A DNA stretch of 64,000 bases from Mesotaenium endlicherianum (GCA_009602735.1 WELA01001079.1:1-64000), one strand, 5' to 3'; counted from the stretch's first letter, positions 16,069-38,129 are shown. The notes: generated from the sequence alone by a model not told the origin. Numbers and translations are program-made.

Positions 16069-19000
16069 TGTAGAAAATAAGCAGTCCTAGCTCTAATTGC
16101 TTAGCATGTGCTTTCACATGTGTGGAGGTTGACTGAAGTTTGTGGTCGGTCGAGGCCGACTAATGTTGGCTGAGAGTGTCGATGTGTAGGGCTTCTGATG
16201 ACTAGGACTGTCGATTAGTTCAAGGTAGGTTAGCAGCCGCAAAAGTGAATATAGAAGGGCAGAGAAACTTGTAAGGGACACACTTGAGTAAGAAAGAGTT
16301 GAGCCCCCGAGAAAGAGAGTGCTCCTCTTGATGTCGTGTGCATGCTTATATGTGTTGTGTATGAGCTGCAAGTGAAGTATTTGTCTTGCTATAGAACGAG
16401 TAAGCAATGACAGATGAAGATTTTCAACATGGTATCGGAGCAGGTTCTAACTCTCGGCTCCCGCACTTCGATGGGAAGGGTACTGAGTATCTTGTGTGGT
16501 CGCGAAGAGTGTGTGCACAGTTAGCCAGACATGATCTCAAGGAGATAGTGCTTGGAAATGAAAAAATCCCAGATCCACTCGAAGTGCCCGCTGCAAATGC
16601 TGATGCAGCAACCAGAGAAGCGTATGTTGCGAATGGAGCAGCTAGAGTTGCATGGCGAAAGAGGGAGGCACATGCATTTGATTTGCTTACAAAGAGCTTG
16701 GGTCAGGAGACCTACATGAGAGTGCTGAATTTAGAGACCAGCACAGCGATGTGGGAGTCGTTGAAGAACCTGCACCAGCAGTATAGTGTTGCTAACAAAG
16801 GCACCTTTAAGAAGAAGTTTGCTCTGTTGAAGCAAGAAGAGGGAGAGAGCGTGCAGTCCTACTTCTCCCGCATCAGAGAAGTGTGTGAGGAATTAAAAGC
16901 CTTGGATGCCGAGGTGAATCAAGAAGATCAGGTGATTCAAGCTCTAAATGGATTGGATTCAAAGTTTGAGACCTTCAGAGACTCCTTCTCAGTGCTGACA
17001 ACTGCTAAACTCACCATGGAAAACATTGATTCCAAGTTGCTCATTAAGGAGGTTCAGTTGGAGACCAAAGAAAAGGCAAGCTCATCCACTGAACAGGCTC
17101 TACTCATGTTTGGAGACAGGAAGTTTCGTCTGGTGGGCAATGAGCTAGTGGAGCAGATGGAAGAGCTTAGCGTGGCCAGTTCCAGTCGGCAAGGAGAAGG
17201 ATGGGGAGAAAGGAGGTCAGGATCTCATAGAGGAGGCTATCAAGGCAAAGGAGGTGGAAGCAAGAAAGGGAGATGCTTCATTTGTGGGAAGACAGGACAT
17301 TCTGCACCAAGCTGCGAGGATGCAGTGTGCTTCACGTGCAACAAGAAGGAATATCTGGCCCGGGATTGCAGCCAGAAGAGAGAAGGTACTTCCCTTCACG
17401 ATGCTGAAGAAAATGCCAATGCTGTTACTATAGAGGAGTCACTGGTGTGCAGCGAGCAGGATGAGGATGCCTGGTTTGTTGACTNATTTGTTGACTCCGG
17501 AGCTGCAAGACATGCCACTCCCAGGAGAGAGATCATGCTCGACTACAAGTCCTGCAGTGCACTGCCAGTCAGAGTTGGTGATGGCATGCTGCTGCAAGGG
17601 ATTGGAACTGGAAAGGTGGTAGTCATGACACAGCTAGGCAAGAGGAGGCACAAGTTTACGATGCAGGATGTGCTTCACTGTCTGGGACTAGTGAAGAATC
17701 TGTTTTCAGTGCCAAAGACCACAGCCCTTGGAAACACAGTGGCTTTTGAAGGAAGTGAGTGTCGAGTCATGGAATCGGACAGTGATGTGGTAATGAAGGC
17801 TGTGAAGTCAAGTGTTCAAGGCAGCTTGTTTAAAATCCAGTGCCAAACTGAGATTGCTCTATCTGTAATGGACCAAATTCTTCAGGTTGAGTTTGCACTT
17901 GGTGCACAGGGAGGTGCCAAGCTGGAGAGTGACATCAACCTGTGGCACCAGAGGCTGGGACATGTGAGTGAGCAGAGATTGAAGCAGATGGCACAAGACA
18001 AGGAGAGAGGGCTGCCAAAATTTACAGGGCAGAGTTTAGAATTTTGCAGGGGATATCAGATGGGGAAGCAGGCCAGGAAGGCACTCCCAAAGGGAGAAGC
18101 TTCAAGGGCTAGTGAGCTGCTGGGGTTGGTTCACTCAGATGTGAGGGGACCTGCTAGTGTAACAACCAGATCGTCAAGAAACTTGTAGTACATCACCTTC
18201 ACAGATGACTACTCCAGGAAGACTGAGGTGTATTTCATGAGAACCAAGGATCAGGCGTATGAAAAGTCCTTGAAGTACAAGGCATCCGTGGAGAAGCAGT
18301 TGGGAAAGAAGATCAAGACCCTGAGGATTGATAGTGGGTCTGAGTATGTCAACGGCTACTTTGACAAGTTTCTGTGGGACGAAGGAATCAAGCATGAGCT
18401 GACTATCACTTACTCTCTTCAGCAGAATAGAGTTGCTGAGAGGAAGAACAGGACTTTGTGGAGGCTGCAAGAGCGATGATCTTTGCGTCTGGTTCATCTT
18501 TGAGTCATGGCTCATCTAGACACTCAAGAAGAGAGAGTGTGCTACCTGCTAGATTTGGCTTTGATGAGTATGTAAGTGTGGCTGAGTTGATGGCTGAGGA
18601 GGATGCTGTAGAGAGTGAGGTGGTCTACATGGTAGGTGACTCAGAGCCCAAGACCTTTGAGGCTGCTATGCGAACAGAGGAAGCAGCTAAGTGGAGAAAG
18701 GCTTCTGAGGAAGAGATAGAGTCACTGGCAAAGAATGAGACATGGGACCTGGCAGAGCTGCCACCTGGTAAGAAGGTTTTGGGAGGCAGGTGGATCTACA
18801 GGAAGAAGAGGAAGGCAGATGGATCAGTGGACAGATACAAGGCGCGGTTTGTGGCAAAGGGCTACTCCCAGACAGAGGGAGAAGACTATCATGAGACTTT
18901 TGCACCAGTTGCCAAGATTGCCACAGTGAGAGTCGTGACGCAAATTGCCGCAGTGGAGGATATGGAGATGCATCAGATGGACGTGAAGACTGCATTTCTG

Positions 19001-20509
19001 TATGGAGAGCTGGAGGAGGAGGTCTACATAGAGCAGCCAGAGGGATTCATTGATGAGAAGTTCCCGAAGAAGATGTGCAAGCTGAAGAAGTCCCTGTATG
19101 GACAGAAGCAGTCTCCAAGAATGTGGAACCAGAAGATAGACTCCTTTCTTCATGGTGAGGGATTTGTGAAGTCCAATGCTGACAGCAGTTTGTATATGAA
19201 GGGAGCAGGTGATGACAGGGTGATGCTGGTACTATATGTTGATGACCTGCTGCTCGTTGGCAAGAAGATGGTGGAGGTGCAGAAGGTGAAGGATGCCCTG
19301 AGTCGTGCCTTCGATATGAAGGACTTGGGAGAGGTACAGTTCCTGCTTGGCATTCAGGTGAAGAGAGATAGGGCCAAGAGGATTGTAATGCTGGGTCAGC
19401 CAGCCTACTTGCAGACAGTGCTGGAGAGGTTTGATATGATGGGCTGTAAGCCTGTCAGTGTGCCCCTTGATCCTAAGCACAAGCTGAGCTCGAGTATGTG
19501 TGCTAAGGATGAGCATGAGTGGGAGATGATGTCTCAGGTGCCCATGAGGAAGGTTGCAGGTAGTATCATGTATCTGATGGTGTGCACACGTCTTGATTTT
19601 GCTAACGCAGTCGGGATAGTGAGTCAGTTCATGGAGAATCCAGGCCTTGCACACTGGGAGGCTATGAAGAGGATCCTGAGATATCTCAAGGGGAGACCAA
19701 ACCTGTGGTTGCACCTTGGCGGAAGTAACAGTGTGAGGCTAGAAGGGTGCAGTGATGCTGACTGGGGAGGAGACATAGACACTCGGAAGTCTACAACAGG
19801 CTATGCATTCTCTCTGGCTAAGGGTGCTGTGACCTGGAAGAGCAAGAGACAAAAGGTGGTGGCCTTGTCGTCCATGGAGGCAGAGTATATGGCAGCCTCA
19901 CAGGCAGTGAGAGAGGCAGTGTGGCTGAGAAGACTTTTGGAGGACCTGGGTTATGAGCAGAAGAGGCCCACTGTTATTTTGAGTGATAGTCAGAGCTGCA
20001 TTGCATTAGGGAAGAACCTTGTTGAGCATGCTAGGAGTAAACATATAGATATTCAATACCATAAGTGCAGGGAGTGTGTGCTTGATGGTAGTGTAGAGTT
20101 CAAGTTTGTTAGAACTGATAAGATGGTGGCTGATGCCTTGACAAAGGCTATTCCCAGATTATAGCACCGATGGTGTGCTGAGATGCTAGGAACTAAAAGA
20201 GATAGTGAGCAGATAGATTAGAACTGAGAGAGAGTGTAGAAAATAAGCAGTCCTAGCTCTAATTGCTTAGCATGTGCGTTCACATGTGTGGAGGTTGACT
20301 GAAGTTTGTGGTCGGTCGAGTCCAGCTAATGTTGGCCGAGAGTGTCGATGTGTAGGGCTTCTGATGACTAGGATTGTCGATTAGTTCAAGGTAGGTTAGT
20401 GCTCCTCTTGGTGTCGTGTGCATGCTTATATGTGTTGTGTATGAGCTGCAAGTGAAGTATTTGTCTTGCTGTAGAACGAGTAAGCAATGACAGATGAAGA
20501 TTTTCAACA
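16069..20509 (+). mobile_element. Ty1/Copia LTR retrotransposon, structurally complete but defective
   Basis: LTRs 16069-16429 and 20235-20509 (TG...CA); 5-bp TSD gctgc at 16064-16068 and 20510-20514; PBS tggtatcggagc 16430-16441; PPT gagagagag 20226-20234. Confidence 0.97.
16407..20164 (+). pseudogene. Copia gag-pol (gag with CCHC knuckles, protease, GAG-pre-integrase, integrase, RT, RNase H); frameshifted, integrase C-terminus deleted
   Basis: CFICGKTGHSAPSC; FVDSGAARH; LWHQRLGH; VHSDV; QNRVAERKNRTL; QMDVKTAFL; LYVDDLL; SDADWGG; RSKHIDIQYH. Confidence 0.95.
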
Positions 20510-20686
20510 GCTGCTGCCTGCTCAGGAGCTTCTCTAGCTCCTGCATTGTGCAGCGTTTCCAAGTAGGTACGGGGTCCAAAGACGCGTCCTGCCCTTCTAC
20601 AAAGTTATCATTGTCCTCACCCTCCATTTCTCGAGAGTTGCTAGTTTGAGACCTTGTCCTGACCATACACGACAACTGTGATAACT

Positions 20687-21436
20687 ACTCTGATACAATT
20701 GAAATGAATTGCCTCACCAATAGACAATTAACATTTAATAGAGATCTTTATATCAGCAAGTAATCTGTATGGTATTTTCTATCGACTGATTACACCGCAA
20801 AAGACAACACACTAGCAGTGAATAATACTCGCAAGTCAAATGCAAGTAAACTAGCATCAATTATGGAATAAGTAAACTCATACATAAGCAAGGCTAGAAG
20901 ATCGTGCGTATCAATGGCTTCTCGCCTTGGATTCAGATATCTCTCAGTAAGGAGTACAAGAGAGTTGGCCTCGTTTTCGAATGCCAAACTTGAGACCAAT
21001 ACCTAGGATATGTACAAGGAATAAGTTTATCGTTCAACGGCAAGTGCGATGGCACCGCCTACCCGGGAGCTAACCACGTTGTTAAGACCTCGGCTAACCA
21101 AATTTACAGCCATCTTTCATCATCCCGAATTGCCATCCACCTTAAAGGTGTCATGTGGCAACTCATTTAGCATGCACACTACACTTAGAAGTATAGCTAG
21201 GCAGTTCGCTGCTGCCGAGTACAACAGCCATTTGATTGTCAAAAAATGTGTCAGCAAGCTGACACAAGTCAACAAGCTAACCAATTGGACTTTAGCTTGC
21301 TACTCTCGGCTGAGTCCTTTAACTAAGTATCAAGTATCCAGCAGACTAATTATTAACTGTAGTTCAGGAGACTGAACTTGTTTAACTATTGTATGTTACT
21401 AGATATTATATCCATCCAATATATTGATTCATTACA
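20687..21436 (-). repeat. Probable 5' LTR (20700-21436) and degenerate Met PBS of an old LTR element whose gag start (MVRTRSQ...) was hit by the Copia
   Basis: Termini TGTAATGAATC...ATTCATTTCA on the minus strand followed by ttgtatcagag; gag-like N-terminus at 20510-20666 continues at 15800-16068 across the Copia TSD. Confidence 0.55.
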
Positions 21437-22585
21437 CTGGCCCAAGAGACACACGCGGTTGACCTCGCAGATACCGTCCACCTGCGTGAGGTGTGGAGGG
21501 AAGCCTATTGCACGCTCTATCTCTACGGCACCAGGCCGCTGGAACATGCCAATTTCGAGGTCAATATACATGCTGCGCTGGTCCCCCACGTGGGCCGCGC
21601 TGTCGTAGTGACTCACGAATGTTGGAAGCGCCCTCGTGACATAGTGGAGGACCTAACACTGATTTTGGGAAGGATGTGGAAAAGCGACCACCCGCTGGGC
21701 CAGGCGCGTCACATCGAGGATAGAGTTGACGTTGCGCGCGTGGCGCGGATGTGCGGTTGCCAAGGCCTCGAGCATGCCTGGCATGGCCAAGATGGTGAAG
21801 TAGGCACGCACGCAGTGCGCGAAGAAGTTAATCTGGGTAGCGTGGATGACGTCAAACGGCCAACGTAGCTGTTGCAGAGCTCGAAGTTGGTGCGCACGTT
21901 GGGCCGAGAATTATGGCGGACAGCCGTGTTCTCCATAACCCAGGCGAGCGTGTGCGGCAATTGGCGGTCCTCAACCATGTTGAAGACGCGGAGTAGATGC
22001 CAGAATAAGGCCGTACGCGGGTCATCGAGCGCACCTCCTTGCCCAGCGATGGAGAATCCCTGGCACTCCCAGCCAGCCAGCAATGATGAGGTCAAGTGAC
22101 CCAAGTCGTGTGATGAGCTCGGCGGCGGTGTCCCGGATGTCCATAGACCAGTCGGTCTGGGCACGGTGGAATGCGTGCGCAGTGAAGAGGTCAGTGAAAT
22201 GCTTGTGGCACAAGGACATGTGCCGGCAGACCACCTGCTGCGCCTCGGCATCAGGGTCCAGGTAGACGTACTGACGTACAGGAATGCTAGCTTGCAAGGT
22301 GGCGAGCAGCTCTGTCGCAATGCCGACAAAGAGCCTGTCAAGGACAATGCCAACAAGATGCTCGTCGAGTTGGTCGAAGTAGATAGGCGTAGGGAGGGGA
22401 CGACAGCGCATGGCGGGAACGCTTACCTGCGTAGGAGGAGGATAGATGCGGAGGACACCATGCTGATGGGGCGCTATGCAAAGGGCCGCCACAACGCGCT
22501 CGACACAGTCACAAGTAAGCCTTGGGAATGCGCTCGAATTGCAAGGAGAAGGCCTGGCATCCTTTACATCAGGGACCTGAGGCAT
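21437..22585 (-). pseudogene. Isolated C5 cytosine DNA methyltransferase fragment, probably Gypsy-derived and frameshifted
   Basis: Motif I GIVLDRLFVGIAT; DIRD; motif IV LIIAGWECQGFSIAG; DPRTALF; motif VI WVMENT; motif VIII FAHCVRAYFTIL; motif IX PGAVEIERAIGFP; motif X RVCLLGQ cut by the LTR at 21436; GC-rich island. Confidence 0.85.
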
Positions 22586-24499
22586 AAAAATAAAAATGCA
22601 CTAAATTAATTTTCACTATCTGTATTCTTCTTCTTACATTTTATGCCACACTATGGAAGAATCTTGCCCTTTCTCTTCAAGCACAATTTAGTTGGTGAGT
22701 GAACTCTACAAGTCTTCCTAGATTAGGCCCTATCCTACATTCAAATGAAGCATACTTCACCCTGCTCAGTAACTTCAAGAGCTATGCATCCCTGCTCTTG
22801 TCTCTTGTCCCAAAGTTTCTTCCTGCCAGCACCTCGCTTGGCACCTCCTTGCAAATCTGTGTAAGCTTACATAAGTGTATTGTGTACAACATCCATCGCT
22901 TGTTTGTCCTTCTTTGCAGACCTAACATGATGTTCTATGCTAGCATAACTATCCAAAAGCAACTTGGAATAAGAAGGGCGGTCGTAGAATCCTTCACAAG
23001 TGCCATTAAGACCAGACTCAGGATCATTCGTAACTGCAATATCGGTATCAGCTTCCACTTCGACTTTCTTCAAATCAGAAATAACACGAGTTTGAATTTC
23101 AGCGCGAATACACTATTTAACTATGTAATGACTTGGATAAACCACGTCAATTGCTTTTTGAGCTTTTGCACTTCAAATAACTTTCTAGCATCTTTCATCT
23201 GCTCTCATTTGACATGAAAGTCTACCTCTTCTCTTCAAGGATTCTTCAGATTTCCCCTGAAGAGGTTGTCAAAGGTGCCGCGCTTTGGTCTAGAAGGCTC
23301 CCTCTAGAGGTAGCGGCATTGATGACACAAGTGGAAATGCAGCGTTGTGCGGCGTGGCGCGGCGCAAGAGCACAAACATGCAGTATGTGTCAGTAAGAGT
23401 GAGTAGGTGGCACCCGTGTGCACTCGTGGCACCTTACTGCACCTGAGTGTACCTGATGGCACCTGACTGTGCTGACTCAGCCTGCCTGACAATAACAGCT
23501 ACATGCAGAAATGGGCGGTCAGCGACTTCAGCGATCACATACAAAAATAGCATGATGGCCATAGATATGCACAAATCAACGCAGATTGACGATATAGGAC
23601 GAGAAAGACAAAGCGGGACCAAGCGGGACAAAGCAAGCAAAAAGTTTGAGGGCGACAACGTATGGGCACATCTAAGCTTCACACAAATTATCACCGGTTT
23701 TCAATGCTAAGATTTGTTGACAACGAAATGTTGATATGCCTACAATTGAAAGGAGCAATCCGGGACGCTGAATGTGGTTTAATATCAATCAAGTTCATCA
23801 TTGCAGGCGCTATGTTAGATAGAGCTTGCAATGAAATGCAATATATTGCAATGACGTGCGATAGCTGAGCTGGCTTGCGCTGGAGTGCGACAATGCCGAC
23901 TAACTTCGCCGAGCTTGGTCCCTAATCCAACAGACTACGCGGCGTTCAAGCAACTTTTGAATGAACGCCATTAATTCTAGTTCTTTTGAAAACGACGACA
24001 TAAAACGCGTGTACTGTGAATTTGCCGACTAAAATTCCAGCATTTAGATTTTCCAACCTTGAAAAAACCTATATTTGAAAAAGGATCCATTAAAGATCTT
24101 CATTTTGATTTTCGGGCGTTACTAATGTCGTGCCTAACAGTGTCGGACCCGTGGTGCGTGCGTGTCTTCCCAGCACATGTGCCTTCGACTTGGTTGACGT
24201 GTCGGTGCGTTGCTGCACGTGGGAATCGACCGGGTTGATCTTCCCTTGCACGTGTGTCGGTGACAGTCTGGTTGGGGTTTGACCCATTCCTGGTCTTCTT
24301 GCACTTGCATCATGTGGTGGGGCATCCCACACTTAGTGCTTCCCATGTTCAACCAGTTCCTCATTCAACACTAAGCAGAAATTTTAAAAAAGATAGCTTA
24401 TCTTCAGTTTCCCTTACACCCCTTCCTTTCAGCTGAGGCGTCCCTGCCTTTCTGCTGAAAGCTTTTATTTCCTGGCCCTATGGCTGGGGGTTTTGGGAA

Positions 24500-24628
24500 G
24501 GCAGTCAAGACATTCCCACCGTCCTGCCATAATCTTTTCTTCACCAATGCAGAAGGTGTGCCAACGGGCACCGACTTATCGCAGGTTACCATTGCTTCTT
24601 GATCATCCAACACTTTGCAGCTGGCACA
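24500..24628 (-). other. PHD finger (C4-H-C3) at the integrase C-terminus of element B
   Basis: Correcting a 1-nt frameshift gives CASCKVLDDQEAMVTCDK(C)GARWHTFCIGEEKIMAGRWECLDC. Confidence 0.85.
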
Positions 24629-27600
24629 AGGCATGGCTGGCACCAATTCCTCGAGCTCAGTCTTAACTGACGATCGATATTTGGCAAATGGCACAGCGAA
24701 CAATTTTGTACGTGATCTCTCATGGTCTTACCATCAGAAACTTCCAGTTCCAACACACCATTGTCGAACGCATGTTTCACGTGTAAGATTATTGCACCTG
24801 AACTGGTGTCAATGGTGGTCTTAGTCTGGCGCTTGCGGTAGACGAAGTCTCCTTCCAAGATCTGCGTCATTTGCAGGCGGTAGCTCCCATCTCGCGTCCT
24901 GGCGTAACGCTGCGTGTCTCTTTTCTTTGCAATTTTCAGATTGTCCAGGGCAGCAGGCATCATGTGCTCAAATAACACCTTGCGGCGCAACATGACCTTT
25001 AACAGTTCATCAGGGTTGTCCAGATCTTTCACCTGCTCATCTCCTGCTTGATGCTGCAGGGCACAATTGGACTTCTTCCCAACAGAATCTGATAAGGCGA
25101 GTAATTTGCCAAAGAAGCTTGCTTGCTAAATCTGTAACCCATAACCAGCCATGGCAGGGCCAGATCCCAATCACGCTTATCATGCTCAAGGCAAAATTTG
25201 CGCAAAGCAAACTTAATGGTTTACACCATCCGTTCTGCCCGACCATCTGCTTGTGGGTGGTCTCTAGACGTAGTGCGCTCGTCAATGAAGCATTTAACCA
25301 GGAGGTTCTGAAAAGATCCTTAGAACTCAGACCCTTGGTCTGTCAACACTTCTGCTGGGGCTCCATGACGTACAATCACACCATTGAGGAGCGCTCTTGC
25401 GGTCCCCAAGCTTTCCTTAGCGGTTAGAGGTACCACCTCTATCTACTTAGAAAAATGCTCAATCATGACCATAATGTACTTGTTACCTCGCTTGGACAGC
25501 GGTAACTCACCTGCGAGATCGCAGCTCCACCGATAGCCTAGGCCCATGATTAGCAGTGGTTGCACGTGTAGGTGTTGCTGCGTAAAACCAGCCTTGACGC
25601 GATCGCAACTTGTACAGGCCTTGATCACATCCTCACATTGCTGCTTCATGCCCCTCCACCAGTAAGACAGCTCCAGAAGATTGTATGTCTTCTTGACACC
25701 ATAGTGTCCATTTATTATGATGCATTTCCTGCACCAGAGCTCGTCTTTTGGTGGATTCTGGCACTAACTTTTCCTGACCAGTTTCTTCAATCTTGAAGAG
25801 GTTATTGCGTTTCCAGCAAAACCTTTTAGCTCGATGACCTACCTGGTCCTTTTCTTTTGCCGATAATCCTTCCATATGGACCTTCGTCTTCAACCAATGC
25901 ATAGTGGCTTGATCTTTCCAGATGTCTGAACTGAACAAAGGTAGGGGCTCAGCTTCTCCTGATGCTACCACTCTAGCCATTTAAGCCAGGCAGGCGGCCA
26001 ATTCTGTGGGGCTGCTCAAATCTTCGTCTTCTCGAGCTCCTAACCTGTCGTGTGCGGATGGGTCCGGGTTCCTGCTGAGTCCATCAGCGTCGTTGTTGAG
26101 TATACCTGCTCGGTGTATCACCGTCATCTGGTACTCCTGGAATTTGAGAGCCCAACAAGCCAGTTTACCAGTGAGGTCTCCATTCTTCATCAGCCAGAAT
26201 AATGGCGAATGATTTGTGATCAACGTGAAGGGTCTACCCCATAGATACTCTCTGAAATATGCAATAGCCCAAACCACTGCCAGTAGCTCTCCTTTGTAGG
26301 ACAAGTAGTTGCTCTCCGCTCAGTTGTTAGAGCGCGAGGCATAGGCAATGACGTACTTCTCTCTAGGAATTTCCAACACTGCAGGTGTCCTAGGAGCTGA
26401 ACTGTCCTTCTCCCATGTTCCAGTGGATGAGGGATGCACCATGGGAATGTGAATTCCCAAAGTCATGGCTTTGCGAATTACGCCATCCTCTCCCTCTCTC
26501 TGCAAAATCTCTGGGATAGGTTGTGGAGGAGGAGCCGTGGTTCCTTTCGGAACCCCTTCTCTCTGAGCTGTTCCCCTGTACTTCAAGTAACGCATCAGCA
26601 TCCGCCTGAAAGGTGCATTGCCTTCCCGGGCAACCTTTCTTGGTCTGCTTGCGCGACCGTGAGGATTTCCTTGTGTTGGTTCCACCTTAGCGATGCAGGC
26701 AGCCACTTCCTGCGGTTGTTGTAGCTAATGTGGGGTAGCTTCTGGTGCTGGCAAACTGGTGGTTGGAGTGCTGGATGTAGGCGACCTTAGATCGTTGTGA
26801 AGATCGGCCGAGCTGGGTCCTTCTATCACCAATTGGTCGTTCACCCAGTCATCCGTTCTGAGTTCTTCTAGCTCCTATAGATCCAGTTCAGGGGTAGGAA
26901 AACGTGGAATTGCTTCCTAAGTGTCCTTTTCAATGGTGACTGACGGCAGGTCGAACCCTGGAAGGTCTAGCATCTCTGCCTCATCTTCAACTGATTTCGC
27001 CGCTCCGGGTGGTGGCGTTTCTCCTTCATTATCTGTGTTGAGCTTTGCCAAGTTGACGATGGCTGATTGCAGAGCGCTTGCCGCCTTAGCCACTTTTCGT
27101 TCCTTGTGTTGTCGGGCGTCTGCGTCCAGAAGCTGCTCCATGATTTGCCTTGCAATGGATTCAGCAGTTTGACTGGCTGAACCCTGCTGTTGCCCCTTAG
27201 CTTGCGGCTCTAAGCTCATCAAGGCAGGTGTTGTAGACAGTGTCTTGTCCAACTCCTCCTGGCGTTCTTCGAATATTACTTCGAGGCATATGGTCTTTGC
27301 AGACCCTCCAAAATCTCCTGACTTCTGGCTACTCTCTTCGGCCCATTCACTAGAATTGCACTGCTGTTCTTGCCTTGGTACTTGGTTTAGGCAGTATCCA
27401 GTAGTTTCAACTGTAAGCTCAGGAGCCTTCTTCTCAGATTCTTCTGACATGTCTTGTAACGACGCTCGCTCTGGTGAAGACGATACACTTTTTGTTGGTT
27501 TCCCAGCTACTTGAGCTTTCCTGCCAACAGTCTCCGTGCCCAGCTGCCCTTAGGCTGAGGGGGGTATCACACACTGACCCGGCCTTTTCTGGGGTCTCTT

Positions 27601-28039
27601 GACGTCTTGATGTCGTTGTTCCGGGAGGTGAGCTCCCAAAAATCTTGCTGTAAGTGGCGTTTCTCACAGATAATGGGGTGCCATGCGTATCGTCCCCCAC
27701 TCCTGGTAGCGGTGCTGCTTGCTCAGGCGCTTGATCCCTCATGGGTGTATCCTCTCTTTCCAGAGGTGCTTGTAATTCATAGGTCCGATTATCAATCCGG
27801 TCCAATAGATCCTGACATCTCATGAGTGTTGCCATCCTATCTCCCCTCTATGCTCTGTCTACAGCGGCTTCCGCTGCGTCTCTTTGCACCCAGTATTCTT
27901 CTTGTTGCTGGTGTGCCATTCTGATAGCCCTCTGGTCAGATGTTGGCACCACATTGATCCCAATTGTTACTGGTCTTGGTCTCGGCATAGGCTTGTTGGT
28001 GAAGGTCAACTGTTGCCATGTCATGATTGTTTCCACCAA

Positions 28040-28995
28040 CCAAGTCATAGAGTGCTACCCGATCATGTTGCCAAAAACCTTTGCAGCCTCATCTGATCCT
28101 ACACCACCAGCCATATGCCGAGCTATGTTGTCGGGTATTCCAAGGCATTTGCCCTTTTCCACCGTGGTGGGCTCTTTCCACACGGCGTCTCTTTTATAAA
28201 TGTCTTTGACCATTCCTGGTCCACCTCCTCTGAAGGCTCGGGATCCTGGACATGTTGTGAAGGTAGGCAGTACCACTCTTGGCTGACCTGGTTCGTTGAT
28301 GACCCACTGTGGATAGGAATCCCTCCAGGTCACTGGTCTGGTATCCACCGCCAGTGCCTTTTACACTGTCAATGCTGTTGGTGAGCGTTGTGTAATGTCC
28401 TCCAATTCTCTCAGAACCTCGATAGACGTGCCGTTGGTCCAAAATATCCTGGCCCTATGAGACAATCCTTCGTGCTTGGCGTCGTTGATTAGCACATGAC
28501 GGCCCAAATTGGAGTCGAAAATCAGCCATTGTTCTCCCGACTTCATCTGCTTGTAGTCCATTCCTGGATGTACGTTCTCAATCACAAACACAGGTGGGTG
28601 ATAGTGCTGACGTTCCCGCAGTATGCTGATGATTTTCACCATCCATCCCCAGTGTTGTGCTCGTGGATCACTGAATTCCCTCTTGTTTCTAGCTTGAGCA
28701 AATGGTTGACAACGGAATCCAGCAAAGATCCAATCACTCCTGTAACCATACAGGTATTCAGGCTTCACGTATATAATGTTGCCTTCAGCAATGCACTCGA
28801 CATTGCTAGATACAAGCGCCAACCTTTGAAAATGATGCATTTGCCGCATCTGATTCATGACCTCTTGGAATGCTCGAAAAGTGTGGTCATTGTTGTCCAC
28901 ATACAGGACTTCGGCCACCTGTATTTCTCGCTGGATCAATGCTATGGTCCCACAGCCAAGTGCGGCAAATAATTCCAGCACCACCACTCCCCTTT
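28040..28995 (-). pseudogene. C5 cytosine DNA methyltransferase domain inside the element-B polyprotein
   Basis: In the 411-aa ORF 28361-29596, contiguous with the protease C-terminal half: motif I VVVLELFAALGCG; motif IV IFAGFRCQPF; motif VI FVIENV; motif VIII SHRARIFWTN. In ORF 28055-28348: motif IX EPTTVEKGKCLGIP and motif X KVFGNMI. Confidence 0.92.
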
Positions 28996-31900
28996 TGCGG
29001 AAAGGATCTTCCATCCTGACAATGCCTTGCGGCAGCGGCTCCACTCCAAGCATCGGATTTGGAGAGGAGGTAACTGGGTAGGGTACTAGCAGCAGCTCTT
29101 GCGGGCTGTGGTCCCTATTACTCACATTTTCTAGCTGCTTCATGATCCGGAATTGCCATACCAAGGGTGTTGGCATGTTGATGCTTGTATAGCCTTCCTC
29201 TTCTTGCTTCATGAGGTTGTCGCTGGCTTCTGGGTACGTGTCATTAAAGTAGCAGTCTAGCAGTCCGTAATTTGCTTCTCCTATGCAAACCATTTTCACA
29301 GGAATCTCTCCTGCCGGCTGTCTATCTGTTGACTGGTAAGTCACTCTCTGTTTCCGCAGATCAATGATCATACCCAAAGGAATCAATGTTTCTGTTCGAA
29401 AGAGAACATCATAGTTCTCAGCTTCCGTCACTGTGCACTCCATGAATTGTGACGCCTCTTTAGGTTCCCCTGGATTTACTATGATTTTCACAAGCTTGCG
29501 GGTAATCCCACAAGATTTTGAGACTTGTCCTGAGGCAGTTCTCGATTGAAAAGGACTCTCTTTCAGGTCCCTTGTCGTCAAACCTAGAGCTTTCACAGCA
29601 CGTTCCCCAAAATGACTGGCTGTGCGCCTGTATCCAACAGGATGTTGGGAGCTGCCCTGTTGTTGAAGATCAGTGCACCATCCTAATTTTGCACTCTTAC
29701 GGTGCTAAAATTGGTGGGCAATGAGGCGGTATTTGCACCTCAGCTATAACCATCTGATGTCCGGCCTCTTTAACCATGAATGGGTAGGTGATGTGCAAAT
29801 CAGCGAGAGAAAGCAAAGGAGCATGCTGGATCCGGTGTTCCACCAGAGCCTTCAGCTTCTCCAGTGAAAAACTCAATGTCTTGCGCGACCCGGGCCTGGT
29901 TTGTCGTAGCTGCGAGATCTCGTTTTCATCTAAAGTGATCCGGCAAGTGTGAGGAACCTTTCCCGCATTCCTTGGCACCAGACGGTTGTGATCTACTTGC
30001 TCGGCAGCTGTTGCATCCACAGCCTTTTCAGGCAACCGCTTCTCGCCTTTGCAGACGGTCTTTTCTGCAATGTCTGCATCATAATAGACATTAAGCGCAT
30101 TTAGATTTGCAAACTGTGCTTTCAACTCAACGATTTCTGCACTCATAGCTTCATACTTCTGGTTACCCTTGCGGTTACCTGAGCCACCCTTTTGTTTCTT
30201 TTTCTCTTTGTCTGCCTCTTTCGTGGCAGCATTTGCCCAGGGCGGCTTTAGATTTGGGTTCTTAGACCAACACTCATCTTCCGAGTGTCCCTTCTTACTG
30301 CAATGTGCGCATATCTACGCTTTGCTAGCGGATAGTTGCTTAGCATCTGGGTACAGGCAGTCTCTCTTGTGATACTCTGATTTCCCGCAATTCCAACAAC
30401 TCTCTGCTGTCTCAGCAGTGTTGGCGTGCTTAGCAAACTTATTGAAAGACCCGCTCTTTTACCCTAAACTGAAAATTAGAGCTGTTGGCCTTAGGCGAAG
30501 AGAATTCCTCTCTCCTCTTAGGAGCCATAAGCGTCCTGGAAGCCTCTTTATACCATACTTTACCTTCTTCGACATTTCGTGCTATTCAATCGCCTCGTCG
30601 ATATCCCAGTGAATCCCGTGTTTTGCGGACGGATGTGGCCTAACGTCACGATCTGTTTCCTTGCCGAAGCACAACAGAAACTTGTCAGCCACTATTCTGG
30701 GCTCGTATACTTTTGCCTTTTTGGCAAGGTCTACCAATCTGGATTTGACCTCCATGACTGTCTCGTTCTTCTGACGAACAAAATGTACATAACGGTGCAC
30801 CTTAAGACTGCGATCCTCAGGGAATCGTGCCTCAAGCAACTTGAAGAAACGACCCAGGCAATGCGTGGCGTCTAGCTGGTCATCCCCAGCCTCCATATCC
30901 TTACGACAGCTAGCCAAGGCTTGCGCATGGCTTGCCTCTCTCGTGGCGCTATCGCTTTGCTGCCCATTGAGAGGTGTAGCTCTGCGTGTTACTCGTTCCT
31001 GAGCTTTAGCAATCTTTTATGACAGTTCTGCACAGACCTTTTGCAATTCTGCGACAGAGCCGACATCATCATCTTGAGGGGCAGCCTTCCGCTGACCCTC
31101 AGTGAGTTGCCTCATGGCCTCTGTTAATTCTTGTCTTAGTGCAACTAAGTCTATGCTCTCAACAGGAGCAGTTGTCATTGTTCTTCTTGAAGATAAAGTG
31201 GACATTCGGGCTTTCGCAGCCTCTTTCTGGATTTTTAAATCCCTAGCCCTTTTCTGTTCTTCAAACGCCCATTTTTGGGTGAGGTCCTCGTCCTTCCGGA
31301 ATTGGCGATATTACAGCAGGGCATCCTTGTCCAAATACTGAACCAAGCCTATAAATGCGACAGATTGCGTATAAGAAGAATCCTTCCGAATCTTCTCAAA
31401 GAATTATGCTCAATAGATCTCATCAAACTCTTCGAAAGTGAGACCATTTCCGCTGGTTCGTCCAATAAAACACTTTGCAGACAGCTTGAACTTAGGATTT
31501 TCATCCCGTTCATCACCGGCCATTTCGAACGGTGAAGAGGACTCACTGACTCTTCCCCACACGTCTTGCTCTCTGCCCAAATCAGGTGTAAAGGCTCGTA
31601 TGTTATCTGGGTTCTCACCGTTTGCGGAGTTATAACAAGACTCGTCGCTCGACGTTTGCTCACTCCACCGGTTGTCAGTATGCACAGACGTCTTACTTTC
31701 TCGTGGACTCTGGCTAGAATCAGAACCTTCTGCAAGCTCCACAGAGTGGTAGAGTCTTCCACTCCTCAATTGCATATACAGTTGAATTTCTCCGGGTCCC
31801 TTTCCAGGTTGAACACCGGCACCCTTCACAGGCCTCAATCCCCAACTGACTTGGAAATGCTTGTTCACCTGAACCAATCAACCCAAGTTCTCAGAAGTAG

Positions 31901-33695
31901 GACAGAAGCGTCTTACTTCCACACAGGCTTTCGCCCAAGTTGAGGGTTTACAGAATGAACAAGTTGGTAGTTTGCAGAAATCACGTCTAAGCAGCTTAAC
32001 AGGCAATGCCAAGTTCAAAGAAAATCGCCCTTGAAGGCTTTCGCTTAACTTCCACGAGTCACAGCTTACAAAACTCTGAACTGCACATCTATGCTGGCCT
32101 GGTCTGAGTTCTTTGCTCAACACCGCGCCTCAACAGCTCTTCACTAATTGGCTGGGCTCACTCAGTTCTTCGCTGAGAGATTTTGCTTGTTAATACTACT
32201 CTTGCTATCAGCAATTCGACAATGGAGACTTCTAAGAACTTGGAAACTAAGACAGCACTCACCATTTTAAGTCACCCTCGCACGCTGGTGGCGTTTGACC
32301 CAAATCTATGCTACTCTCCTAACAGATTCTATTCTGCAGCTCTCTACTTTCTACCAGCGAGATCCTCTCTTGGGAACTTTTGAGGTCTAACCATTCTATG
32401 ATACACTTTAGGACGAAATCTTCCAGCGTCGACAGAAGCGTGGCGCTCTGACTCTTCTATGGCCTTGGGAACTCCTTCTTCTTCGCGCTCCTTTTGCTTC
32501 TTTAGCTTCCTTCGACAACGATGCGAGCAAGAATGAGGCAGCTTCAGGCAGGGCTCGTGCCTTTCACAGGCACCACACATTATCCTCTCTCGAGAATGCC
32601 AGTGCTTAGCCACCGCGCTTAGCTTGCATGCCGTCCTTGCCCGGCAGTTCTCTCACAGCTTAGAAGTTGTCATTCAGCATGCATGCATGCATGCATTGGG
32701 ATTGTTGCGCGTGACCACTCAGCCTTCCAGCTGACAATCACGCCTATGTGGCTGGCTGACAGCGTTTAGGATGAACGCTCAGGCCGTGACCAGTCACCTG
32801 AGGGCCTAGCCGAGGCGGCACACGGCGCCCTTTGCAACATCCTTGCTGTACTTGGCTTGGATAGCCGATTGATCAGTATCTTTCCTGGCACTTGCTAGTC
32901 TGGCTCATTGCTGGTTCCATGTCCCTAGCCTTTCGGCTGACCACTCGGTCCACATCCGCATCCCATCCTGGGTGTGGGCGTGACGTGTCGTGACCACTTT
33001 GACAGTGACAACGACTTCAACATGCCCGCTGACTCGGTCCTCTGGTCGGTGAGTCAATACTGACTTCCCGAACCTGGGCGGCCGTGACTTGCGCTGCGCG
33101 TGCGGCACCGTCAAGTGGATAGCAGTCGCGACAATAATCGCGCAACACAATTATTTTGCTCCTACACGTCGAATTTTGAATAATTGGCGCTATCTAAAGG
33201 CGCTATATGCCCCCTCCTCCTGGGGGAAGTCACCCCCCCATGCCTGAGAGTCGCTACTTGCACCACAAGTGCTGCGCAGTCCAAGTGGTAGCCATCGCGA
33301 CATACATTGCTCTCCATTTTCAATCTTTGGAGCATGGGGTGGTAACTCCCCTCCAAAATTTGGGTGAAATAGCGCCCAGGATTCAAAGATGAAAAATAGC
33401 GACCTGAAATCAAAATTATGCAGTGAATTAGCGCCCTTAAATCAAGGAAATGTGGGTCAATAGCGACCTGAAATTAAACTTGGAAAATTTTAGTATTGGG
33501 AAAATTAGTGCCAGTTATCACCCCATGCTTTGGAGGGTAAAATCAATATTTTGTACTTTTTTTGCGTGTGCCAGGAGGTTCGGAGTGCGTTATGACTATT
33601 TGGAGAATAAGTCTAAGGTTGCTGAACTTCTTCAGCAGGCTGAAGGTGAAATGGCTAGGACATCTGTACCGTGAGGAACCTCACTGTTTTAAGAC

Positions 33696-36195
33696 ATGGC
33701 TGTTGACTACCAGTACGGCCACTTCAGATCAATGGTTCCCGAGAACCAGATTACAGTAGGGCCGTCTGAACAAAGGTCCTTATCCTGTCTTGAATAATAA
33801 TCGATTTCATTCCTTTGGATAACTTACTGATGGCATGGCAGGGCAGTCTCGCGGTTTTTCGCTGCGTGTAATTGAGCTTCGCGGCGTCCTCCCATCTGTC
33901 CTTTTATATATGATATTAATTGCAATAGAGTTACTTCTATGTGTTTTCGTCAGTGTTATCGAAGGTGATGACCTTTTTCGAGGGGTGGCCTGTTTAGGTC
34001 TTTCTTCCTGTGCTGGCCCCCAATTGCTTACTAAATTCGCGTTGGCTGGTAGATTGCAGATGGAGGTACTACGACCATGGGCCAAAGTCAGTGCCTCCTG
34101 TTATTTTTCTGGGAGGCGTGGGAGTGACAGCAGATGTGTTTTATAGGCAGCTCCTTACGTTGGCTGGCTGGGGCTACAGAGGCATTGCTGTAGATTATCC
34201 GGCGCTATGGACGCACAAGCAGTGGCTCACAGCATTTGATCATTATCTTGATGTCCTTCGCCTGCACCAGGTCAGTGCTGACATTACATCATGTCTCGCT
34301 GTTCCAGTGCCCTGATAGATGATGCCCTGACCGAGCATTAAGTATATGGCTGGTATTTTAATTGGGGGTACAGGTGGATAGCGTTAGAATTCAATGTACG
34401 ACTTGGGTGTGATTGACGTCTTTCCCAAATTGATTTCGTGTTGTGCTCCGATGAGGCGCATTTTAAACCATTGAGATTTGAAATTAAGAATTGCCAATAA
34501 GTTGGCAGCTTAGCAAATGGCAGGTTTTGTTCAGGAACATCAACCTCACACAAGCAGGAGGGATATTACGGATGCTGATTGAAAAGTGCAGTGGTGCAAA
34601 AAATGAGTTACTTCTAGTGCGAGGTCGTAACTGAGGGGTGAGCAGGTGCACCTGTATGGAATGTCACTGGGAGGCTTTCTAGCTCAGCTGTATTGCCAGC
34701 ACAGGCCACGCAGGGTGCTGTCCGTGGTGCTGTCTAATACGTTCCTGGATACGCGCTTCTTCTTCCAGTCTTCTGGTGTCTGGTCAAAGGTGTAAGTTGC
34801 CTGCTTGCAGAGTCTATTTTCAGCTTTTTTTAAGTTTACTGCAGGTGCGAGTTCTCTATTGGTCAATAATGAGGTAAGGGCTTGCTATCCTGGCGTGCTC
34901 TGGATTGTAACGCTGCCTATTGGGATAAGCTCCTGGCACAGGTATATATGCCTTTGCTGTCTTGTGTCGAGGGTACACATGTTGGACGTTGGTGTGTCAG
35001 CTCCTGCTCATATACCTCAACTTAATTGGGTGACAGGTTTGCCTGGGCTCCGGATTTTGTGCTGAAGAGGCTTGTGCTGTCAGGGCTGCATCAGGGCCCC
35101 CACGAGGCCCTCACGGCTGAATCAATTGACTTTGTAGTGGCACACCTGGACAAGCTTGGACGTGCTGAGCTGGCAGCTCGCCTCTCTCTCAAGACCGAGG
35201 TTGCAGCCGTGGGGCGTCTGACCCTTTCAGATGTAAAGATTACAGTGATGGACAGCCTGGACTGTGTTTCAGTTCCACCTGCGCTCAAAGATGCTGTCTT
35301 CGAGCGCTACCCAAACGCAAGGCGTGCCACACTCAAGTCCGGCGGCGAGTTTCCTTCTCTGTGTAGGGCTGACGAGGTGGGCCTGCATCTAGTGCTGCAT
35401 TTGCGCCACGTGCATGCTGCACGCGTTGCTTGTGCTCCAGATGTTTTGGCTGACATGCAACTAAGGGACGTGCAAAAAGGCAGCCCATCTTCACATTGGG
35501 ATGGCAGGGGTGGAGGAGCAGCAGGACAAGGAGGGACAGTAGAAGGCAAACAGGAGCAATCAGAGATCAGCGACAAATGCATTTGCGAAAGGGAAAGGGG
35601 AGGCGGCGATTGGCATGCTTTGGCGCACCATGAAAGGCCTGCAGGTGACAGAGGCGGAGTCGCGGCAATGCTTCAGGGAAGGCACGAGAGCATCAGCAAT
35701 AGCATCAAGACAAGCACTTCCTCTGAATGTTCAAGTTTGCGAGCTGGGTGCAGACGGAAGCTGCTTATGGACGGTCGCAGCGCGAAGGGGTGGGCGGAGG
35801 ACGCCAGCCACTTGCAAGATTGGGCTGACGCTGACCATCCTCTGTCGTCCGTAACAGGAGGTGCTATTGCTGGCGTTAAGATTGTGACTCCGAACGACCT
35901 GTTGCAGGTCACCCAAAATGTAATGCACAAGACTACGGAGAACATAGACTTGAACAACAACGGGCGCACGTCATACCGGGGGGTAGAGGATGAGAAAGGT
36001 GAGGGCGAGAAGCTTTCAGGTAGCACAAGGAATTTAGGGGGTCCTGCGGATATCGGCAGGAGTCATGTACCAGGGGGGGATAAGAACAGAGGCAGAGGCT
36101 TGCTGGCCTGCGACAAGAAGCACCAGCAGTATCAGGAAAGGAATGTGGACAGGTACCGGAAGAGCAATCCAGTTGTTTGGCTTCCATCCTCTTAA
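33696..36195 (+). CDS. SPG21: Maspardin (SPG21/ACP33)-like alpha/beta hydrolase-fold protein; exons 33696-33775, 34060-34270, 34646-34791, 35037-36195; 531 aa predicted
   Basis: YGHFRSMVP...WRYYDHGPKSVPPVIFLGGVGVTADVFYRQ...VHLYGMSLGGFLAQ...WAPDFVLKR...LKSGGEFPSLCRADEVGLHLVLHLR; all three introns GT-AG with consistent phases; 1596 nt in frame. Confidence 0.9.
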
Positions 36196-38129
36196 CCTCC
36201 TGGTGCGTCCCTGGTGCGTCAAAGGAACTCAGTTGAGGGCTTAGGCTGGAGTACAATAGAGAGCAGTGGATGAGCTTAGATTCTCTTTACATACCGCCCT
36301 CCTCTGTTGTCGAGGCCGCTATCTGCAGGCCATCTCTTACCTCAGAAGATAGGTTGAAGGTTTGTGGCGTGCATTCTGAAGATAGCTTTAGAACGGAGAG
36401 CAGGAGTCTAAGTCCACAAGCCGGAGGCTGTTGTAGCGGAGGACAGATGCCCCCAGAAAGCAAAATTTTGTATATCGTGAAGGGTATTCAGGATGGAGAA
36501 ACTTCGATTGCAGGTTCTCATGACGTGGATGTCTATTGGTTCTGAGCAACTATGGCGGAAAACGTTCAATTGGAAATAGCACATGGGTGTACAGTCTAAT
36601 TGAAAGCTGGGGTACTGCTTGTAGGAAATGGGTAGTTTTACTTAAGTGGCTCTGCTTTGTTTGAAATAACTCTTTGAAGGTACTCATTTGGATGATTTCT
36701 TTGAGTTATAGCCTCCGAAACAATACATCCTACAACAATGAGGTCCATGATCTGTTGACTTGCTATGGATATTGCTGTGCCTACTGAGGCTACTTTAAAT
36801 GTCGCCTGTGTCCATCGAGTACTCGTAATGTGTCAAAATAGAGGAGGGGAATCATCCGCACGTGACTACTCCACTACGTGGAGAGCGTTGTAAAAGGCAC
36901 TGATGAGCAAATATATATGGCTCGCTTACTTTGTATGCTGTGTCAGTAATTCATAGTGCATGCTCATTTAATTCCCCTGAATTTCACAAATGCACCACAT
37001 CAATGGTGCTGCATTTGGAAATCATAGCGGACTTTAAGAATCACACGACAATCCACAAGCTGAGGCACAGGCCAGTGTGTGCAGCTACGTCTGTAGAGCA
37101 CAAACTTGGGCTTGTTCCAAAAGGTATGCCCTGCAATAAAAGTTGTCCACGTCCATTGCATGGCAGGAATAGAAATGGGTTTCCCGAGCAACCTTGGAAA
37201 ACCTGGTGAGTGATCCACCGAGCAAACCGCACTCGTAGGTTTCCACTTTGTAGTTTTGGGTTATGACCCCTCGAAGTGAAGGTGTTTTATTGCGAAACAA
37301 CTGGGCACGACCAAATCAGAGAGAAAGAGCGAGAAAAATGTATCTCTCGACAGCCTTGCAATGATTTTGGCCCCTCCAAAACGACACACATGCACCACGC
37401 GCGGGCCAAATCACGCGACAATTGATTTTGGCGCTGGGGGTACCAATTCGGTACCGATCGGTCTCACTCGCGACTCTTTTGACAAAGTTAAGAACGCGTT
37501 GCAGCAGCTCACTTATCTTCTTCATAATTCTCTGTACACTCTCTTAGCACTTACAAGTCCTAATTAAAAGTTGTTAAGCACTTAAGGGCAAACACCTCAC
37601 AACAAAAAAAAAGACTTGAGACGAAGTGTGGAGGCATTGACGACTAAATGAAAGTGGCGGATTCACAAGAGTAGAGCCTATAAAAGGTATACTATGGCTC
37701 TTTTTGCTGCACTCTTGCCCCATTAACATTCAGCACTGTTATTCATAATGTTTGTTATTTGCTATAAAAGAATCGCAGATGGGTTTAGGACATGTCCACC
37801 CCGTGAATTTGTGGACAAATTCGTATAGACGTATTTCAAGACGATTTTGTGAGGAGGGTACGAGCGGCCTGGGAAACGCAGGGAAATGTAGGTGTCAACA
37901 TAAGCAACATAAGAAGGGAAGAAAATCATTTTTACTTCACTTTTGCCTTGGGGGCAGGTTGGGACCAAATTGGGGGCAGATTTTAGGGATGGGGGCAGAT
38001 TTTAGGATATTCATTACTTGATTACACAACAAGTTCTTATACTTACCTGAGCAGTAATAGTCCAGTATTAGTACTACGTTACTCATTATTCACCTCTTAA
38101 CTTCTTTTCTTTTGGAGTGGGGCTAGGAC

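What the first reader, a model, noticed from the sequence alone, without database searches (positions are those of the whole stretch)
24404..31877. Gypsy retrotransposon carrying a C5 DNA methyltransferase in its polyprotein
Seen: directly after the aspartic protease (LLDTGAQ) the polyprotein has C5-MTase motifs I, IV (FRCQ, catalytic Cys kept), VI (ENV), VIII, a TRD, IX and X in canonical order. The protease C-terminal half and motifs I-VIII share one 411-aa ORF. Established: this motif order defines Dcm/DNMT-type cytosine methyltransferases, and MTase-bearing Gypsy elements have been reported in charophyte algae, so the concept is not wholly new. Inference: the enzyme would be cut from Gag-Pol, packaged in the particle, and could methylate the new cDNA or insertion site (self-camouflage or self-regulation).
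Basis: partly seen in the sequence, partly recalled or inferred. Interest (0 to 1): 0.85.

Follow-up and report, generated by a model that had tools for sequence, protein, structure and literature searches.

The report
Methyltransferase retrotransposon lacking reverse transcriptase
This is a dead copy of a multi-copy jumping gene of a freshwater green alga that carries a DNMT3-like DNA-methylating enzyme (a design already described in a related alga), but it has no reverse transcriptase and so likely borrows one, and its two ends are the halves of a short palindrome, conserved in distant relatives, that its integrase is predicted to cut open.

Summary
The methyltransferase is real: PF00145 above cut-off, motifs I-X in order, DNMT3-like by family profile and fold, 26% identical to a Klebsormidium nitens protease-DNMT protein. 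The host is Mesotaenium. So the headline is a known kind (Gypsy-DNMT3, de Mendoza 2018), and this scan noted it before in mosses. (1) There is no reverse transcriptase: a ~545-codon, nearly open, disordered stretch replaces RT and the first half of RNase H; other copies carry this stretch too, so the family is probably non-autonomous while keeping Gag, protease, DNMT and integrase. (2) The element (24126-33133) has no terminal repeats. Its ends are halves of a palindrome, CGACA-GC-TGTCG, found joined in other copies; GACA-nn-TGTC lies 3' of the integrase in 16 of 18 related loci long enough to show it. This suggests that the LTR is circularly permuted and that the integrase opens a joined cDNA at an internal site, explaining the 'DIRS-like' repeats reported without a mechanism for K. 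nitens. Similar palindromes were noted by this scan in moss elements. Enzyme activity and mechanism are untested.

The parts
24126..33133 (-). Whole element: A - coding region - PPT - B, beginning TGTCG and ending CGACA
   Evidence: Depth of laid DNA contigs rises from 66-79 outside to 8,000-78,000 inside; 89 and 93 loose ends with unlike flanks at 33133 in two runs of one sample; joints 33133->24126; end sequences
31898..33133 (-). Segment A (1,236 bp), non-coding 5' part; inferred to be the downstream part of a permuted LTR (rest of U3, R, U5)
   Evidence: Joints in other copies link 31895-31901 to 24418 and 24126 to 33133; no open frame
33129..33133 (-). Left integration end TGTCG: one half of the palindrome CGACA-GC-TGTCG
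   Evidence: Sequence; joined to the other half with GC or GT between them in 10 contigs of each of two runs (tables 5, 5c)
32228..32244 (-). 5' arm of a 17-bp stem (2 G:U) with the sequence just behind A; candidate self-primer
   Evidence: Longest stem in 31700-33133; 0 of 30 shuffles gave 15 bp with at most one G:U; not formed in the minimum-energy fold of 31860-32260
31882..31898 (-). 3' arm of that stem, at the place of a primer-binding site
   Evidence: Begins exactly where the A-to-B joints map
29700..31775 (-). Gag-like region with two zinc knuckles (30398 degenerate, 30311 intact); 8 stops
   Evidence: Translation; weak tblastn match to Closterium protein P0046; no Pfam hit
29270..29680 (-). 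Aspartic protease, LLDTGAQ at 29640-29620, frameshifted just behind it
   Evidence: Translation; matches proteases of relatives
28013..29011 (-). DNMT3-like C5 cytosine methyltransferase, motifs I-X, two stops
   Evidence: PF00145; 96 hits in 1.84 billion proteins, 22-37% identical; model pLDDT 85, best folds DNMT3B/3A
26365..28000 (-). About 545 codons of nearly open, disorder-rich reading frame where RT and the first half of RNase H should be
   Evidence: 1 stop in 138 and 4 in 386 codons against 4-17 in the other frames; codon bias like the domains; no RT trace; present in other copies
26074..26361 (-). C-terminal part of RNase H only (starts at YVIAYASRS; the TDWS motif with the first catalytic Asp is missing)
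   Evidence: PF17917 from profile position 29; positions 378-473 of a 473-position RT-RNase H profile
24604..25730 (-). Gypsy integrase: HHCC, D-D-E core (25526, 25343, 25238), C-terminal part
   Evidence: PF17921, PF00665; 55-59% identical to integrases from Calypogeia and unnamed records, many with a PHD finger
24470..24640 (-). Remnant of a PHD finger
   Evidence: CxxC..D..M..CD pattern by eye across a frameshift; no Pfam hit; relatives carry PF00628 here
24419..24430 (-). Polypurine tract directly before the TG that starts B
   Evidence: Sequence
24126..24418 (-). Segment B (293 bp), TG...CGACA; inferred to be the upstream part of U3; ends in the right integration end
   Evidence: Joints at 24418 and 24126; sequence
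24122..24125 (.). Possible 4-bp target-site duplication with 33134-33137, one mismatch
   Evidence: Flanks read; weak

Best explanation
This is a dead copy of a multi-copy, likely non-autonomous Gypsy-DNMT3 retrotransposon family of Mesotaenium: it keeps Gag, protease, a DNMT3-like methyltransferase and integrase, has no reverse transcriptase, and is predicted to integrate by cutting an internal palindrome in a joined cDNA. Shown: the domains, the missing RT, the open linker, the ends, the joints in other copies, and the conserved palindrome in relatives. Inferred steps: (a) the linker keeps the frame open so that the integrase is still made; RT comes from an RT-bearing relative packaged in the same particle (one with PR-DNMT-RT-RNase H-INT order lies at 2.4-6.2 kb of this window); (b) reverse transcription is ordinary, from the PPT and a probably self-primed site behind A, so the cDNA repeat is B-GC-A; (c) the integrase does not use the cDNA tips but the palindrome CA-GC-TG inside that repeat, where one staggered cut after CA on both strands gives two ends with 2-nt 5' overhangs, the shape of processed retroviral ends; a one-repeat circle opened there gives A-coding-B (this copy), a two-repeat circle gives A-coding-B-A-B, the form that can be copied again; (d) the DNMT, released by the protease, would methylate CG in the new cDNA.
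For: DNMT3 type: profile of 19 relatives (without this copy) scores DNMT3A 7e-23, DRM2 6e-13, HhaI 1e-11; Foldseek ranks DNMT3B/3A first, TM 0.64-0.69; E 3e-24 to K. nitens GAQ93235.1. No RT: no Pfam RT hit in six frames of 26350-28000 while a control Gypsy of the window gives 118 bits; a profile of 18 relatives finds only positions 378-473 of 473. Linker is shared by other copies: bins at 7,983-11,233 depth against 66-79 in unique flanks; 9 listed places in it show other letters in 4-22 contigs; all-depth there (1,588-10,200) overlaps that of the MTase rows (2,421-21,244); a 2-letter indel is listed at 27484, near the frame break. 4 of this copy's 19 stops fall on the 40 listed places where other copies differ, and indels are listed at 24573, 25038, 25714, so at least some breaks are private to this copy. 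Ends: 89/93 unlike flanks at the start of A; B-to-A joints exact, with 2 letters between; A-to-B joints ragged (31895-31901), as expected of joined cDNA tips. Palindrome: GACA-nn-TGTC occurs 27 times in 166,995 bases 3' of the integrase core against 2 times in 272,064 bases before it, in the 57 of 67 loci with integrase; present in 26 of 45 loci with 1 kb, 16 of 18 with 3 kb behind the core; spacer GC in 24 of 27; other spacings not enriched. L067 reads PPT-B-AC-A-B-flank, L062 reads PPT-B-flank; L004 and L044 start A at a foreign flank. Foamy-virus integrase cleaves a palindromic LTR-LTR junction (PMC1180852, abstract).
Against: No whole second copy could be read (no genome held), so that most copies lack RT rests on contig depths, which the tool says are no copy number, and only 24 of about 2,800 loose ends and 15 of 290 joints were shown. 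Depth is higher over gag and integrase than over linker and MTase, so close RT-bearing or MTase-free subfamilies may exist. The DNMT is a long branch (2.63 against a median 0.64), keeps 17 of 25 conserved columns and has Ala for the first Gly of motif I; alone it gives no significant PDB hit, and the model was built on Dnmt3-like relatives. CG depletion of the element (0.60) equals the window's (0.61). The self-priming stem is absent from the minimum-energy fold, z -0.09. The target duplication has a mismatch. The 26 loci include repeats of one element (L009/L011/L012 99% alike). Several contigs (L006-L008, L044) show head-to-tail units at the palindrome, which may be tandem insertions or assembly joins. 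L002 has 5.6 kb behind the integrase and only a one-mismatch site.
Confidence: 0.55

Rival explanations
1. An ordinary autonomous Gypsy-DNMT3 family; RT was lost only in this copy or a small branch, and the linker is an expanded DNMT-RT spacer left after a deletion.
For: Relatives have long disordered spacers before RT (P0141, P0162). Depth is higher at gag and integrase than in the middle. RT-less deletion products occur: L004/L005 keep only the RNase H tail, DNMT and integrase.
Against: The linker is covered by many different contigs at depths like the MTase's; it is open and coding-like over 545 codons; no RT or pre-RT trace.
Confidence: 0.2
2. No circle is needed: the integrase cuts both internal palindromes of a linear B-A-coding-B-A cDNA, or A-coding-B-A-B arises by template jumps as in split-repeat DIRS elements and this copy lost its A-B tail by recombination between the two B segments.
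For: B-by-B recombination gives exactly A-coding-B. In L067 the same three letters precede both B copies, which fits a template jump. PMC5890265 likens the K. nitens repeats to DIRS.
Against: Cutting a linear cDNA twice cannot make the A-to-B joints; their ragged positions and added letters fit end joining. This rival still needs the palindrome as the integration site.
Confidence: 0.2
3. The element became an RT-independent DNA transposon (Ginger-like; family recalled) that moves A-coding-B by its integrase; the palindrome is an excision-circle junction as in IS3/IS30 elements (recalled).
For: Ends are a 5-bp inverted pair, integrase is the best conserved domain (55-59%), RT is gone.
Against: Gag, protease, PPT and a primer-site stem are kept; the palindrome with a fixed GC spacer is shared with RT-bearing relatives, whereas an excision junction would carry variable host letters.
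Confidence: 0.05

Closest known systems
KnitGypsy-Dnmt3 of Klebsormidium nitens (de Mendoza et al. 2018, PMC5890265; abstract, passages, Discussion and a search of 3 supplementary text files seen, figures not)
   Same: Dnmt3-type DNMT inside a Gypsy Pol; repeats described as A-coding-B-A-B; streptophyte alga; 26% identity over the whole DNMT to K. nitens GAQ93235.1.
   Different: No RT and half an RNase H; very diverged DNMT; this copy is A-coding-B only. In the passages read, the paper gives no palindrome, PPT or mechanism for the repeats.
SymbioDIRS-Dnmt3 (same paper)
   Same: Dnmt3 domain in Pol, split direct repeats; two of these DNMTs methylated CG in yeast.
   Different: DIRS elements use a tyrosine recombinase; here a DDE integrase is present and no recombinase was hit in the frames scanned.
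EpiLTRs (bioRxiv 10.64898/2026.05.21.726589; abstract, section 8 and passages seen; supplements closed)
   Same: LTR retrotransposons with their own DNA methyltransferases.
   Different: EpiLTRs carry DAM, a DNMT4-related DNMT and a chromodomain; the paper calls them distinct from streptophyte Gypsy-DNMT3. 'Mesotaenium' does not occur in its text.
Integrase cleavage of palindromic LTR-LTR junctions in foamy virus (PMC1180852, abstract) and HIV-1 (PMC1905944, search listing only); IS3/IS30 circle junctions (recalled)
   Same: A DDE enzyme opens a palindrome with CA...TG at its centre to give processed ends.
   Different: There the palindrome is the junction of the two DNA tips; here it is a templated site inside the repeat, away from the tips, and it defines the genomic ends.

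Membership tests
Streptophyte Gypsy-DNMT3 (KnitGypsy-Dnmt3) | Dnmt3-type C5 methyltransferase within the Pol frame | tested here: met
   same frame as the protease C-terminal half
Streptophyte Gypsy-DNMT3 (KnitGypsy-Dnmt3) | Reverse transcriptase and whole RNase H in the same polyprotein | tested here: not met
   hence filed as an RT-less derivative, not as an autonomous member
Streptophyte Gypsy-DNMT3 (KnitGypsy-Dnmt3) | Gypsy DDE integrase behind RNase H | tested here: met
Streptophyte Gypsy-DNMT3 (KnitGypsy-Dnmt3) | Repeats arranged A-coding-B-A-B | tested here: inconclusive
   This copy is A-coding-B with no repeat; both B-to-A and A-to-B joints exist in other copies; B-A-B read whole only in relative L067
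Streptophyte Gypsy-DNMT3 (KnitGypsy-Dnmt3) | Catalytic residues kept | tested here: inconclusive
   Cys (IV), Glu-Asn (VI), Arg-x-Arg (VIII) kept; first Gly of motif I is Ala; 17 of 25 conserved columns
Streptophyte Gypsy-DNMT3 (KnitGypsy-Dnmt3) | Purifying selection on the DNMT | not testable with these tools
   No second full copy could be read
Canonical Ty3/Gypsy LTR retrotransposon | Two LTRs, TG...CA, at the element's ends | tested here: not met
   No direct repeat in 18000-40000 or by self-BLAST; the ends are different sequences
Canonical Ty3/Gypsy LTR retrotransposon | Polypurine tract before the 3' repeat | tested here: met
Canonical Ty3/Gypsy LTR retrotransposon | Primer-binding site behind the 5' repeat | tested here: inconclusive
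   No TGG at the end of A; 17-bp self-complementary stem not in the minimum-energy fold; host tRNAs not compared
Canonical Ty3/Gypsy LTR retrotransposon | 4-5 bp target-site duplication | tested here: inconclusive
   4 bp with one mismatch
DIRS/PAT split-repeat retrotransposons | Tyrosine recombinase instead of DDE integrase | tested here: not met
   DDE integrase present; no recombinase hit in the frames scanned, which did not include every + strand frame of the element
Ginger DNA transposons (features recalled) | Long terminal inverted repeats, integrase without Gag and protease | tested here: not met
   Only a 5-bp inverted pair; Gag and protease present

The most novel reading that the evidence does not exclude
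A whole lineage of PHD-finger Gypsy elements (Mesotaenium, relatives of Klebsormidium and bryophyte elements, many unnamed metagenome contigs) has abandoned the cDNA tips and integrates by opening a circular cDNA at a conserved internal GACA-GC-TGTC site, as bacterial IS3-type elements open their circles; within it, this Mesotaenium family spread without RT as a parasite that brings its own integrase and DNA methyltransferase, which would mean that the methyltransferase is worth more to an element than its own RT.
Probability: 0.4. Interest if true: 0.85.

Novelty: new variant of a known kind. Interest (0 to 1): 0.6.

Why it matters
The methyltransferase cargo alone adds a host (Zygnematophyceae) to a kind known since 2018. 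The two added features matter more. An RT-less family that keeps DNMT and integrase is a natural test of what the cargo is for: if it is under selection in an element that cannot copy itself, it acts in cis on the element's own particle or cDNA. The conserved internal palindrome gives a concrete, testable mechanism for the unexplained 'DIRS-like' repeats of Gypsy-DNMT3 elements and would be a case of LTR retrotransposons that normally integrate from circles, an old question in retrovirology (recalled). Practically, LTR finders that need twin repeats will miss A-coding-B copies.

Tried and rejected
No genome was held for the window. A search for long close relatives of the MTase found none among 365 candidates. 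Scans of viral contigs found no relative (9 and 27 pattern matches, none confirmed). The MTase alone gave no significant PDB sequence hit. RT remnants in the linker: a z 3.9 match to P0141 (1 of 28 pairings) was low-complexity and vanished in BLAST and profile tests; rejected. The Atlas gave no usable hit for the linker. Reading TAA/TAG as Gln was considered and dropped: a stop also stands where relatives have Trp (FSK*IEV), which fits mutation. One RNA-like contig set covers the integrase end and A deeply and the MTase thinly, but contigs cannot rank expression. The careful tree did not finish; the quick tree (70 rows; proteins with under 240 aligned residues and 5 near-duplicates left out) has no outgroup and only shows the long branch and that the copy lies outside the RNase H-DNMT clade. 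The second structural aligner did not complete. Searches that found no paper on the palindrome, on RT-less DNMT elements or on Mesotaenium Gypsy-DNMT3: (open-licence library only; figures, Repbase entries and closed supplements not seen).
Full report
Observation. The - strand frame 28364-29704 hits the C5 methylase model PF00145 at 34.8 bits, cut-off 22. Motifs I, IV, VI, VIII, IX-like and X stand in order at 28978, 28723, 28582, 28459, 28174 and 28081. The protease motif LLDTGAQ is in a neighbouring frame; the shared frame is 413 codons from that frameshift to the first stop. The copy is dead: 19 stops in about 2,385 codons and about six frameshifts. A gene next to it is identical, over the part searched, to Mesen1 ME000089S10075, i.e. 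Mesotaenium endlicherianum (label recalled). No genome was held.

What the methyltransferase is. A search of 1.84 billion proteins gave 96 hits at 22-37% identity. I scanned 40 of them with Pfam and all with local domain queries: many are Gypsy polyproteins, either PR-DNMT-RT-RNase H-INT or RT-RNase H-DNMT-INT-PHD. Named ones come from Mesostigma, Closterium and Klebsormidium nitens; the K. nitens protein aligns over the whole domain, 26%, E 3e-24. A profile of 19 relatives ranks DNMT3A (7e-23) above DRM2 (6e-13) and HhaI (1e-11). An AlphaFold2 model (pLDDT 85, built on those relatives) matches DNMT3B/3A first. So this is the Gypsy-DNMT3 kind of de Mendoza et al. 2018 (PMC5890265; abstract, passages, Discussion, supplement search), which a 2026 preprint calls 'streptophyte Gypsy-DNMT3'; a 2019 opinion paper repeats it (PMC6338049, passages). 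This scan noted the kind in seven moss-like windows. The copy's domain is diverged: branch 2.63 against median 0.64, 17 of 25 conserved columns, catalytic Cys, Glu-Asn and Arg-x-Arg kept, first Gly of motif I replaced. Activity is therefore open.

No reverse transcriptase. Between motif X and RNase H lie about 545 codons with 1 stop in 138 and 4 in 386, against 4-17 in the other frames, with the codon bias of the real domains and a disorder-rich make-up. Six-frame Pfam finds no RT there, while a control Gypsy in the window scores 118 bits. A profile of RT plus RNase H from 18 relatives matches only positions 378-473 of 473; tests for remnants were negative. Laid DNA contigs (4 runs, at most 3 samples) cover the linker at 7,983-11,233 against 66-79 in unique flanks in run X1; 9 listed places in it differ in 4-22 contigs, and a different copy spans 27447-27871 with 59 differences. 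Indels are listed at or near four of this copy's frameshifts, and 4 of its 19 stops fall on the 40 listed (of 1,685) variable places. I read this as a family trait with a once continuous frame, at about 70%; the depths are not copy numbers and no second whole copy was read. The integrase remains 55-59% identical to relatives. An RT-bearing Gypsy-DNMT3 lies in the same window, and L004 is an independent RT-less DNMT-integrase element.

The ends. The element spans 24126-33133 and has no terminal repeat. One search shows 89 and 93 unlike flanks at 33133, exact joints from 24126 to 33133 with GC or GT between (10 contigs per run), and ragged joints from 31895-31901 to 24418. With this gives: A (33133-31898), coding region, PPT, B (24418-24126, starting TG right after the PPT). 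The B-to-A joint is the palindrome CGACA-GC-TGTCG. Just behind A lies one arm of a 17-bp stem with 32244-32228 (0 of 30 shuffles), where a primer site belongs; self-priming is reported for Tf1/Tcn1 elements (PMC6317226, passages), but the stem is not in the minimum-energy fold. In 67 metagenome loci of the lineage (best 80 of 159 confirmed matches), GACA-nn-TGTC occurs 29 times against 6.6 expected, other spacings not above chance: 27 times behind the integrase core and 2 before it, in 16 of 18 loci with 3 kb behind the core, spacer GC in 24 of 27; some loci are the same element, and DNMT-free members (L044, L047) have it too. L067 reads PPT-B-AC-A-B-flank and L062 PPT-B-flank; L004 and L044 begin A at a foreign flank.

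Mechanism. Shown: domains, loss of RT, ends, joints, conservation of the palindrome. Inferred: the cDNA repeat is B-GC-A, made in the ordinary way from PPT and primer site; the integrase opens a joined cDNA at the internal CA-GC-TG, where one staggered cut yields two processed ends. One-repeat circles give A-coding-B, two-repeat circles give A-coding-B-A-B, the form described for K. nitens as 'the same as DIRS' and the only form with the repeat needed for the next round. Integrase cleavage of palindromic circle junctions is known for foamy virus (PMC1180852, abstract). Rivals: private loss of RT; template jumps plus B-by-B recombination without circles; an RT-independent transposon. The DNMT most likely would methylate CG in the cDNA, as proposed in PMC5890265, where the K. 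nitens domain was inactive in yeast (inconclusive by the authors' account); nothing here tests it, and the element's CG depletion equals the window's.

Novelty. The headline is known. My searches found no paper on an RT-less DNMT-bearing family, on Mesotaenium Gypsy-DNMT3 or on the palindrome; figures, subscription papers, Repbase and preprint supplements were not seen. I wrote the palindrome model down before finding that this scan had noted similar internal palindromes in moss Gypsy elements; those notes are unchecked and are not counted as support. Verdict: new variant of a known kind, interest 0.6; most novel reading 0.4 likely, 0.85 if true.

Noticed in passing
window 2426-6243, - strand: A second, unrelated decayed Gypsy-DNMT3 element with PR-DNMT-RT-RNase H-INT order (GWECQG motif; RT with an internal gap); no DNA similarity to the focal element.
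   Followed up: partly
window 21400-22450, - strand: A third Dnmt3-like methyltransferase, motifs I-X with frameshifts, without protease or RT nearby; multi-copy by depth.
   Followed up: partly
window 21000-21516: A very high-depth repeat (149,099 against 66-79 for unique DNA in run X1), unidentified.
   Followed up: no
window 33900-36200, + strand: Host gene, 100% identical over the part searched to Mesen1 ME000089S10075 (PF00561; looks maspardin-like, recalled); spliced joint 34791-35037 GT..AG in run X5. 'Mesen1 = Mesotaenium endlicherianum' is recalled.
   Followed up: partly
P0008, P0010, P0019 and others; loci L001, L003, L006-L009: A second architecture, RT-RNase H-DNMT-INT-PHD, in 29 of 70 tree rows, inside one 98%-supported clade apart from the PR-DNMT type; hosts unnamed. 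Named PR-DNMT carriers include Mesostigma, Closterium and Klebsormidium.
   Followed up: partly
L004:1975-9320 (and L005): Another RT-less element: A, RNase H tail, DNMT, integrase, PHD in one 1,798-codon frame, then B-GC-A.
   Followed up: partly
L006:7083, L007:5080, L008:5728, L044:8888: Different elements joined head to tail exactly at the palindrome; tandem insertion or assembly join. L006 and L008 have perfect 15-bp stems between A and gag.
   Followed up: partly
window 7834-14331, 45119-50748, 57052-64000; 16400-20200; 37400-43663 with 50749-56487: Several copies of a chromodomain-type Gypsy family with ordinary 740-bp LTRs, a Copia element with strong CG depletion (0.24), and a duplicated unidentified element of about 5 kb.
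   Followed up: no
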